From Escherichia coli (GTDB lineage Bacteria; Pseudomonadota; Gammaproteobacteria; Enterobacterales; Enterobacteriaceae), in assembly GCF_003334815.1 (NCBI RefSeq), contig NZ_QOWO01000038.1: a DNA stretch of 34,633 nucleotides. One strand, given 5' to 3'. Positions 33,621-34,190 of the stretch are shown here, piece after piece. Every line of letters begins with the position of its first letter. The first letter of the stretch is position 1. Made by a program: the position numbers and the translations under genes. Under the pieces are notes generated by a model, which was not told the DNA's origin, did not search any database, and was given only the letters and a program-made list of their open reading frames with translations.

Positions 33621-34190
33621 ATGAGCCGATTCATCCCCATAGAATTACACCATGCCAGCCGTCTGTTAAATCATGGCCCAACGGTCTTGATCACCAGTTT
33701 CGATGAGCAATCCCAGCGGCGTAACATTATGGCTGCAGCCTGGTCAATGCCGGTGGAGTTTGAACCTCCACGCGTGGCGATTGTGGTAGATAAATCGACA
33801 TGGACCAGGGAGTTGATTGAACATAACGGTAAATTTGGCATCGTTATCCCGGGCGTTGCAGCAACTAACTGGACGTGGGCGGTGGGAAGTGTGTCGGGGC
33901 GTGATGAAGATAAATTTAATTGCTATGGCATTCCGGTTGTGAGAGGCCCGGTATTTGGTTTGCCTCTGGTCGAGGAAAAATGTCTGGCGTGGATGGAGTG
34001 TCGATTGCTACCTGCGACTTCTGCGCAAGAAGAATACGACACGCTGTTTGGCGAAGTAGTATCAGCAGCGGCAGACGCACGGGTATTTGTCGAAGGCCGC
34101 TGGCAGTTTGATGATGATAAGCTCAATACGTTGCATCATTTAGGTGCTGGGACGTTTGTTACCAGCGGCAAGCGTGTTACGGCGGGTTAA
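33621..34190 (+). CDS. yddH: Flavin reductase-like domain protein
   Basis: ORF-track frame 33573-34190; start placed at ATG 33621 after GAGGCG ([11 protein letters not shown]...), 189 aa. Confidence 0.85.

What the first reader, a model, noticed from the sequence alone, without database searches (positions are those of the whole stretch)
34187..34190. Convergent genes yddH and pptA overlap at their stop codons
The yddH stop (TAA 34188-34190) and the pptA stop (complement of 34187-34189) share three bases. No room is left for a terminator on either strand, so transcripts must run into the opposite gene, with possible antisense interference between the two.
Basis: seen in the sequence. Interest (0 to 1): 0.15.

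Follow-up and report, generated by a model that had tools for sequence, protein, structure and literature searches.

The report
Convergent yddH/pptA four-base end overlap
Two real E. coli genes that face each other overlap by four bases (TTAA) because a one-base deletion in K-12-like strains destroyed the older pptA stop codon; this is a common, already catalogued kind of gene overlap and is ordinary.

Summary
yddH (33621-34190, +) and pptA (34187-34420, -) overlap by 4 nt (TTAA). Their two TAA stops share 2 positions (34188-34189), not 3. Both reading frames are confirmed by RefSeq annotation, PDB 1GYJ/1GYX/1GYY and a flavin-reductase homologue.

The overlap is a recent polymorphism. About 30% of complete E. 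coli genomes that hold the junction carry the K-12 allele. The rest, and other Escherichia species, have GCATTACATG where K-12 has GCATTCATG. Their PptA is 75 aa (the NCBIfam PptA profile is 75 long) and a 3-nt gap separates the stops. A 1-nt deletion in the old stop added Asn-Ala and moved the stop onto yddH's TAA.

In other genera where the two genes abut there is an 18-177 nt spacer, most with a strong G+C-rich hairpin, some clearly terminator-like. Escherichia lacks it. So "no room between the genes" holds for the whole genus and owes nothing to the shared stop bases.

Overlapping transcription of this pair is already published: pptA-yddH is one of 165 convergent excludons of MG1655 (NAR 2025). 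Four-base stop/stop overlaps, TTAA included, and their origin by stop-codon loss were described in 2007. Functional antisense interference is untested. Low interest; already known.

The parts
33621..34190 (+). yddH CDS (flavin reductase family protein, 189 aa), stop TAA at 34188-34190
   Evidence: ORF list. RefSeq annotation of identical K-12 DNA. Homology to PDB 3hmz over residues 6-186, E 1e-36. Present in 5376 of 5426 E. coli genomes.
34187..34420 (-). pptA (ydcE) CDS, tautomerase PptA, 77 aa, stop TAA = complement of 34187-34189
   Evidence: ORF list. RefSeq annotation. Residues 2-77 identical to PDB 1gyj/1gyx/1gyy. NCBIfam NF002324 matches residues 1-75 of a 75-position profile, leaving Asn76-Ala77 outside.
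34187..34190 (.). TTAA: the 4-nt CDS overlap; the two stop codons share only 34188-34189
   Evidence: Sequence; annotation.
34193..34198 (.). Site of the 1-nt deletion. K-12 has GCATT^CATG; the majority allele has GCATTACATG. The deletion destroyed the ancestral pptA stop (TAA on the minus strand) and shifted termination 6 nt further, to the TTAA.
   Evidence: Alignment and translations of Escherichia loci L003-L008. RefSeq annotates a 75-aa pptA with a 3-nt gap in strains carrying the longer allele.
34185..34207 (+). Weak A+U-rich imperfect hairpin spanning both stop codons (about -6.9 kcal/mol on either strand). On the + strand it is followed, after AGG, by UUUCUUUAU (34211-34219).
   Evidence: Folds. 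Not flagged by the terminator scan. The left arm is not conserved in L006 or L009.
34353..34376 (+). Terminator-like site inside pptA (antisense): GCAGCAAGTGCTGC + TTTTTGTTGT. A possible but unproven yddH terminator.
   Evidence: Scan: 1 site found against 1.9 expected in shuffles, so no better than chance. Fold -9.6 kcal/mol, z -1.67. The same site occurs in L084.
33770..34186 (-). C-rich, G-poor RNA downstream of the pptA stop (antisense to the 3' two-thirds of yddH); a candidate Rho loading and termination zone
   Evidence: 78-nt windows with C/G 1.15-3.2, mostly above 1.5, over the first ~416 nt. No intrinsic terminator-like site on this strand.
34203..34205 (+). Next in-frame stop (TAA) for yddH, 5 codons after its stop

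Best explanation
This is an ordinary 4-nt stop/stop overlap (TTAA) between two genuine convergent genes of E. coli K-12, yddH (flavin reductase family) and pptA (tautomerase). It arose by loss of a stop codon. In most E. coli and in sister Escherichia species, pptA ends ...Gly-Tyr-Ser-Met-TAA, 3 nt away from the yddH stop. In the K-12-like lineage, one base of that stop was deleted. Translation then continues for two codons (Asn, Ala) and ends at a TAA that is the reverse complement of the T preceding yddH's TAA plus its first two bases. The absence of an intergenic terminator is older than the overlap. Genera that keep the two genes adjacent (Citrobacter, Kluyvera, Kosakonia, Pluralibacter and others) have an 18-177 nt spacer, most with a strong G+C-rich hairpin; Escherichia lacks it. 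Each transcript therefore has to end inside the other gene. Inferred: pptA mRNA is ended by Rho on the C-rich untranslated RNA antisense to yddH. Inferred: yddH mRNA ends at weak embedded signals or reads through pptA. The resulting 3' transcript overlap is already catalogued as a convergent excludon. The four shared bases add nothing mechanistic.
For: Shown: coordinates and frames. Gene reality. In the 40-nt K-12 junction search, 1,403 records match at 99% or better and 2,736 fall in the 90-95% band, whose sampled rows all span 41 nt. In the reciprocal 41-nt ancestral query, 3,253 records match at 95% or better and 1,423 fall in the 90-95% band, whose sampled rows span 40 nt. RefSeq annotates a 228-nt pptA with a 3-nt gap in the longer-allele strains. 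Escherichia whittamii, Escherichia sp. E1V33 and two GTDB species representatives still labelled E. coli all have the 75-aa form. The PptA family profile is 75 long. Strong spacer hairpins of -19 to -27 kcal/mol occur in L022, L023, L048, L051, L052 and L080, against -6.9 kcal/mol in E. coli. The antisense RNA is C-rich. From the literature: TTAA-class overlaps and the stop-codon-mutation origin (PMC2174442); pptA-yddH in the MG1655 excludon list (PMC12288877).
Against: The polarity of the change (deletion in K-12 rather than insertion elsewhere) and the 'loss' of the spacer hairpin in Escherichia are parsimony inferences from outgroups, not a dated phylogeny. The spacer hairpins differ in sequence between genera. 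The simple scan did not call them terminators, and L076's 18-nt spacer holds no strong hairpin. Allele counts rest on identity bands plus sampled rows, not on every alignment. No 3'-end mapping data were available here, so the Rho and readthrough assignments are inferred from composition only.
Confidence: 0.85

Rival explanations
1. The tail-to-tail arrangement is a selected regulatory device (an excludon). Overlapping 3' transcripts of yddH and pptA cause mutual repression by RNA polymerase collision or RNase III cleavage of the duplex, so the cell makes one enzyme or the other.
For: pptA-yddH is on the published MG1655 convergent excludon list. Wherever pptA was found within 3 kb of yddH in the 80 fetched species loci, it was convergent with it, and it lay within 200 nt in 20 of them. 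The excludon paper reports higher synteny for excludon pairs in general.
Against: Inclusion in the list shows overlapping read coverage, not regulation. The paper could not validate convergent excludons by dsRNA capture. pptA is dispensable: its body is absent from about a quarter of E. coli genomes and deleted in ST131 and E24, while yddH stays. Relatives place a strong hairpin between the genes, which argues for insulation rather than coupling. The 4-nt overlap itself is polymorphic.
Confidence: 0.12
2. The weak hairpin that spans both stop codons (34185-34207) serves as the stem-loop of a collision-type bidirectional terminator of the kind proposed from SEnd-seq data. It would position head-on RNA polymerase collisions at the gene boundary.
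For: The hairpin forms on both strands (-6.9 kcal/mol in K-12, -7.6 in the majority allele). The 81-nt region 34180-34260 folds better than all 200 shuffles (z -2.9). Such terminators are reported not to resemble intrinsic terminators but to need a stem-loop (bioRxiv 10.1101/2022.10.23.513370).
Against: The right arm is simply the conserved Gly-Tyr-Ser-Met codons of pptA. The left arm varies without compensation in L006 (G to C) and is unrelated in E. albertii L009. The stem is short and A+U-rich. No 3'-end data were examined.
Confidence: 0.08
3. The overlap is an annotation or sequencing artefact: a wrong frame, a wrong stop or an assembly error.
For: Most E. coli have a pptA that stops 6 nt earlier, and the family profile is 75 aa.
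Against: The exact junction sequence recurs in 1,403 independent records. A stop is fixed once the frame is fixed, and both frames are supported by homology along their full lengths. PGAP annotates 77 aa for this allele.
Confidence: 0.02

Closest known systems
Four-nucleotide convergent stop/stop overlaps (CTAA, TTAA, CTAG, TTAG) generated by stop-codon mutation or deletion (Lillo & Krakauer 2007, PMC2174442)
   Same: Two opposite-strand CDSs share a TTAA tetramer. The origin here is traceable to a 1-nt deletion in a stop codon followed by read-on to the next stop, which is exactly the 'stop codon mutation' mechanism.
   Different: Nothing substantive. Here the event can be seen as a segregating polymorphism within one species.
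Convergent excludons of E. coli MG1655 (Sanmartin et al., NAR 2025, PMC12288877)
   Same: The pair pptA-yddH is itself listed among them, and short or absent intergenic distance is typical of the class.
   Different: Mutually exclusive expression and RNase III processing, which define a functional excludon, have not been shown for this pair.
Bidirectional intrinsic terminators between convergent genes (A-tract / G+C hairpin / T-tract)
   Same: In Citrobacter the same two genes are separated by just such an element, e.g. AAAACGGGCGGATTTTCCGCCCGTTTTTT in L022/L023, -26.9 kcal/mol for the folded 63-nt stretch.
   Different: The E. coli window has no such element. Only a -6.9 kcal/mol A+U-rich hairpin over the stops remains.
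Rho-dependent termination of untranslated RNA downstream of a stop codon, including suppression of antisense transcription (established knowledge, not tested here)
   Same: RNA downstream of the pptA stop is untranslated, C-rich and G-poor over about 400 nt.
   Different: No Rho-dependence data for this locus were available. The yddH downstream RNA is not C-rich, with C/G about 0.7-1.3 over the first ~340 nt.

Membership tests
4-nt convergent stop/stop CDS overlap (TTAA class) | Two protein-coding genes on opposite strands, tail to tail, both real | tested here: met
   RefSeq annotation; PDB identity for PptA; flavin reductase homology for YddH; NCBIfam PptA equivalog at 158 bits against a cut-off of 83.
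4-nt convergent stop/stop CDS overlap (TTAA class) | The overlap is one of CTAA/TTAA/CTAG/TTAG and contains both stop codons | tested here: met
   TTAA at 34187-34190; stops at 34188-34190 (+) and 34187-34189 (-).
4-nt convergent stop/stop CDS overlap (TTAA class) | Origin by mutation or deletion of a stop codon with read-on to the next stop | tested here: met
   GCATTACATG (75-aa PptA, 3-nt gap) in other Escherichia and most E. coli, against GCATTCATG in K-12. Polarity is inferred from outgroups.
Convergent excludon | Overlapping transcripts of the two genes detected by strand-specific RNA-seq | not testable with these tools
   Reported in the literature: pptA-yddH is in Table 1 of PMC12288877, which requires detection in at least 50% of 58 MG1655 transcriptomes. 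No reads could be examined here.
Convergent excludon | Mutually exclusive or anticorrelated expression, or RNase III-dependent processing of the duplex | not testable with these tools
   No pair-specific data were found. The paper could not validate convergent excludons with p19 dsRNA capture.
Bidirectional intrinsic terminator between convergent genes | Stable G+C-rich hairpin flanked by an A-tract and a T-tract, located between the two stops | tested here: not met
   There is no intergenic DNA. The scan finds nothing at the junction. The only hairpin is -6.9 kcal/mol and A+U-rich. The feature is present in Citrobacter relatives L022, L023 and L015.
Tautomerase PptA (NCBIfam NF002324) | Full-length match above the curated cut-off | tested here: met
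   158.5 bits against a cut-off of 83. Residues 1-75 match profile positions 1-75 of 75; Asn76-Ala77 are extra.

The most novel reading that the evidence does not exclude
Loss of the intergenic terminator in Escherichia turned yddH and pptA into a functional convergent excludon. The weak hairpin over the stop codons would position RNA polymerase collisions, so that expression of the flavin reductase and of the tautomerase becomes mutually exclusive. The natural alleles (4-nt overlap, 3-nt gap, pptA deletion) would then form a ready-made series for testing this.
Probability: 0.08. Interest if true: 0.3.

Novelty: already known. Interest (0 to 1): 0.07.

Why it matters
It matters very little. 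The overlap appears in standard annotation. The class (4-nt TTAA stop/stop overlaps) and its origin by stop-codon loss were described in 2007. The transcript overlap of this very pair was listed in 2025.

This check adds two small points. First, the overlap is a within-species polymorphism caused by a single-base deletion that lengthens PptA by two residues. Second, the real architectural change, the absence of a hairpin-bearing spacer, is shared by all the Escherichia examined. That gives natural controls (4-nt overlap, 3-nt gap, pptA deleted) should anyone wish to test convergent-gene interference at this locus.

Tried and rejected
- **Rfam, whole window at gathering score:** only the fdnG SECIS matched.
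- **Rfam, 33400-34633 at E up to 1:** nothing, so there is no known RNA element at the junction.
- **Promoter/terminator scan of 33000-34633:** one terminator-like site on the + strand inside pptA, no more than shuffles give. One promoter-like site overlaps the pptA start codon and is taken as chance.
- **The same scan on relatives L023 and L048:** nothing found. The folds nevertheless show -19 to -27 kcal/mol hairpins with flanking A/T runs. My guess, not tested, is that stem extension into the A/T runs defeats the scan. These hairpins are therefore called terminators by inference only.
- **Supplementary tables of the ExcludonFinder paper:** not held. The overlap length, the fraction of samples and the Nanopore confirmation for this pair could not be retrieved.
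- **Literature search on yddH:** nothing on its 3' end or termination.
- **Sequencing or annotation artefact:** considered and rejected.
- **Deletion as a marker of the divergent K-12 yddH haplotype:** considered and rejected. Strain 2013C-4465 has a K-12-like yddH (98-100% identical) but the longer junction allele.

Full report
**What is in the sequence.** The end of the window is the E. coli K-12 region narW-narV-yddE-nhoA-yddH-pptA-ISAs1. The stretch 33400-34633 is 100% identical to strain BW25113. There RefSeq annotates yddH (flavin reductase family protein) at window 33621-34190 on the + strand and pptA (tautomerase PptA) at window 34187-34420 on the - strand.

Positions 34187-34190 read TTAA. 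The yddH frame ends GGT TAA, with the stop at 34188-34190. The pptA frame ends ATG AAT GCT TAA on the minus strand, with the stop equal to the complement of 34187-34189. The two stop codons share two positions (34188 and 34189), not three. The coding sequences, stops included, overlap by four bases.

**Are the genes and their ends real?** Yes.
- PptA residues 2-77 are identical to the crystallised YdcE chain (1gyj/1gyx/1gyy), C-terminal ...GYSMNA included.
- PptA scores 158 bits against the NCBIfam PptA equivalog, whose cut-off is 83.
- YddH aligns over residues 6-186 with the FMN-binding flavin reductase 3hmz (E 1e-36). Both proteins end within three residues of the alignment.
- The junction is not an assembly error. 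The exact 40-nt junction occurs in 1,403 E. coli records.

**Where the overlap came from.** I fetched yddH loci from 80 species representatives and located pptA and both stops in each.
- Escherichia whittamii, Escherichia sp. E1V33, two GTDB species representatives still labelled E. coli, and an E. coli-like MAG contig all read GGTTAAGCATTACATGCTGTAACC or a near variant. There pptA ends ...Gly-Tyr-Ser-Met-TAA at 75 aa, and 3-4 nt separate the stops.
- K-12 reads GGTTAAGCATTCATGCTATAACC. One base of the old stop is missing, so translation adds Asn-Ala and ends on the TAA that is complementary to TTA of GGT-TAA.
- The NCBIfam PptA profile is 75 positions long and matches residues 1-75 of the 77-aa K-12 protein.

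The change is polymorphic within E. coli.
- With the 40-nt K-12 junction as query, 1,403 records match at 99% or better. A further 2,736 fall in the 90-95% band, and every sampled row of that band spans 41 nt.
- With the 41-nt longer allele as query, 3,253 records match at 95% or better. A further 1,423 fall in the 90-95% band, and the sampled rows span 40 nt.
- So roughly 30% of the ~4,660 genomes that hold the junction carry the overlap, and about 70% have a 3-nt gap. These fractions rest on identity bands and sampled rows, not on every alignment.
- RefSeq annotates the longer allele as a 228-nt pptA beginning 3 nt after yddH.
- The deletion is not simply linked to the divergent K-12 yddH haplotype. 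Strain 2013C-4465 has a K-12-like yddH but the longer junction.

This is the stop-codon-mutation route to convergent overlaps described by Lillo and Krakauer. They also name TTAA as one of four tetramers that make 4 nt a preferred overlap length, and they counted 58 convergent overlaps in E. coli (PMC2174442).

**The missing terminator is older than the overlap.** In 14 non-Escherichia loci pptA lies within 200 nt of yddH (Citrobacter youngae and C. braakii, a Raoultella-labelled MAG, Kluyvera, Kosakonia, Pluralibacter, Pseudenterobacter, an Enterobacter sp. and 'Escherichia sp. ESNIH1'). The stops there are 18-177 nt apart.

Most of these spacers fold into strong G+C-rich hairpins. L022/L023 have AAAACGGGCGGATTTTCCGCCCGTTTTTT, and the folded 63-nt stretch reaches -26.9 kcal/mol. 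L048, L051, L052 and L080 reach -19 to -27 kcal/mol. Several have U-runs for one or both directions. L076, with an 18-nt spacer, has no strong hairpin.

The simple scan did not call these hairpins terminators. I suspect, without having tested it, that stem extension into the A/T runs defeats the scan. Their role is therefore inferred.

Escherichia has no such spacer. What remains is a -6.9 kcal/mol A+U-rich imperfect hairpin over the stop codons (34185-34207). Its right arm is simply the Gly-Tyr-Ser-Met codons of pptA. Its left arm is not conserved in L006 or in E. albertii. By parsimony, the spacer was lost in the Escherichia lineage, and the 1-nt deletion came later in part of E. coli.

**How transcription probably ends (inferred).** With or without the 4-nt overlap, each mRNA must finish inside the other gene.
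- pptA: downstream of its stop, the minus-strand RNA is untranslated and has C/G ratios of 1.15-3.2, mostly above 1.5, over about 400 nt. No intrinsic terminator-like site is found on that strand. This is the composition Rho prefers, so I expect Rho-dependent 3' ends antisense to the distal part of yddH.
- yddH: the downstream RNA is not C-rich (C/G about 0.7-1.3 for the first ~340 nt). The only candidates are the weak hairpin followed, after 3 nt, by UUUCUUUAU, and a 5-bp stem plus T-run at 34353-34376 inside pptA. The latter is no better than shuffles give. yddH transcripts may therefore cross much of pptA.
- This fits the one piece of direct evidence I could find. pptA-yddH is listed among the 165 convergent excludons of MG1655, defined by overlapping RNA-seq coverage in at least half of 58 transcriptomes (PMC12288877). 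The supplements with pair-level detail were not available.

In E. coli, 23 of 116 genes in convergent overlaps have predicted intrinsic terminators inside the partner gene. Also, 146 of 165 convergent excludons have overlapping predicted terminators.

**Is there antisense regulation?** This is unknown. The excludon paper could not validate convergent pairs by dsRNA capture.

Arguments against a selected coupling:
- pptA is dispensable. Its body is found in 4,100 of 5,426 genomes, against 5,376 for yddH.
- ST131 and E24 carry a ~260-bp deletion that removes most of pptA.
- Relatives insulate the two genes with a hairpin.

Argument for a selected coupling: pptA was convergent with yddH in every species locus where it was found within 3 kb, and adjacent in 20 of the 80.

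I give a functional excludon about 0.1 probability. I give a collision-positioning role for the weak hairpin (compare bioRxiv 10.1101/2022.10.23.513370) a little less.

**Verdict.** The feature is an ordinary, previously catalogued kind of overlap. Novelty: already known. Interest: low.

Noticed in passing
window 19431-19489 (-), TGA at 19484-19486: A selenocysteine insertion sequence (Rfam SECIS_3, 84 bits) lies immediately after an in-frame TGA. That TGA splits the formate dehydrogenase-N large subunit (fdnG) into two mechanical ORFs, 17024-19435 and 19484-20071. This is expected for fdnG.
   Followed up: partly
window ~34250-34509; L003 and L085: E. coli ST131 and strain E24 carry a ~260-bp deletion that removes the 5' three-quarters of pptA and its ribosome-binding site. 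A 62-nt 3' remnant is left next to yddH, and the ISAs1 transposase gene is brought to within 70 nt. The pptA body is detectable in only 4,100 of 5,426 complete genomes.
   Followed up: partly
L002 3794-6793 (strain GPEC128-620): In this strain homology to K-12 stops exactly at the yddH stop (GGC TAA A...). The downstream DNA is a different island with a type VI secretion Vgr protein and an M35 metallopeptidase. The yddH 3' end is thus a boundary of a variable region.
   Followed up: no
window 33621-34186: The nucleotide identity of yddH to K-12 is bimodal across E. coli: 1,465 records at 99% or better and 3,322 at 90-95%, with few between. These are two deep haplotypes of a core gene. pptA is less divergent, at 95-99% in 2,144 records.
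   Followed up: partly
L009 3568-3900 (Escherichia albertii NBRC 107761): pptA appears frameshifted here. The N-terminal 49 residues are in one frame and the C-terminal part in another, so it is probably a pseudogene.
   Followed up: no
L004, L011, L068: There are likely labelling or binning problems in public records. The MAG 'Citrobacter sp. HRGM_Genome_0066' has both an E. coli-like yddH locus (L004, same segment identities to K-12 as E. coli FDAARGOS_497 in all but the last, poorly aligned segment) and a Citrobacter-like one (L011). 'Chryseobacterium sp. 18061' carries an Enterobacteriaceae-type yddH at 80% identity.
   Followed up: no
window 34421-34633: pptA has a strong Shine-Dalgarno sequence (AAGGAG, 7 nt before the ATG), but no convincing sigma-70 promoter was found upstream within the window. 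The only match (34447 to 34419, - strand) overlaps the start codon. The upstream gene on the same strand is an ISAs1-family transposase (ydcC), so co-transcription is possible.
   Followed up: no
L001 6569-7151 (K-12, beyond the window end): The neighbouring pair ydcD-yncO also overlaps convergently, at 6669-6754 in L001, which is 86 nt. It too is on the published excludon list.
   Followed up: no
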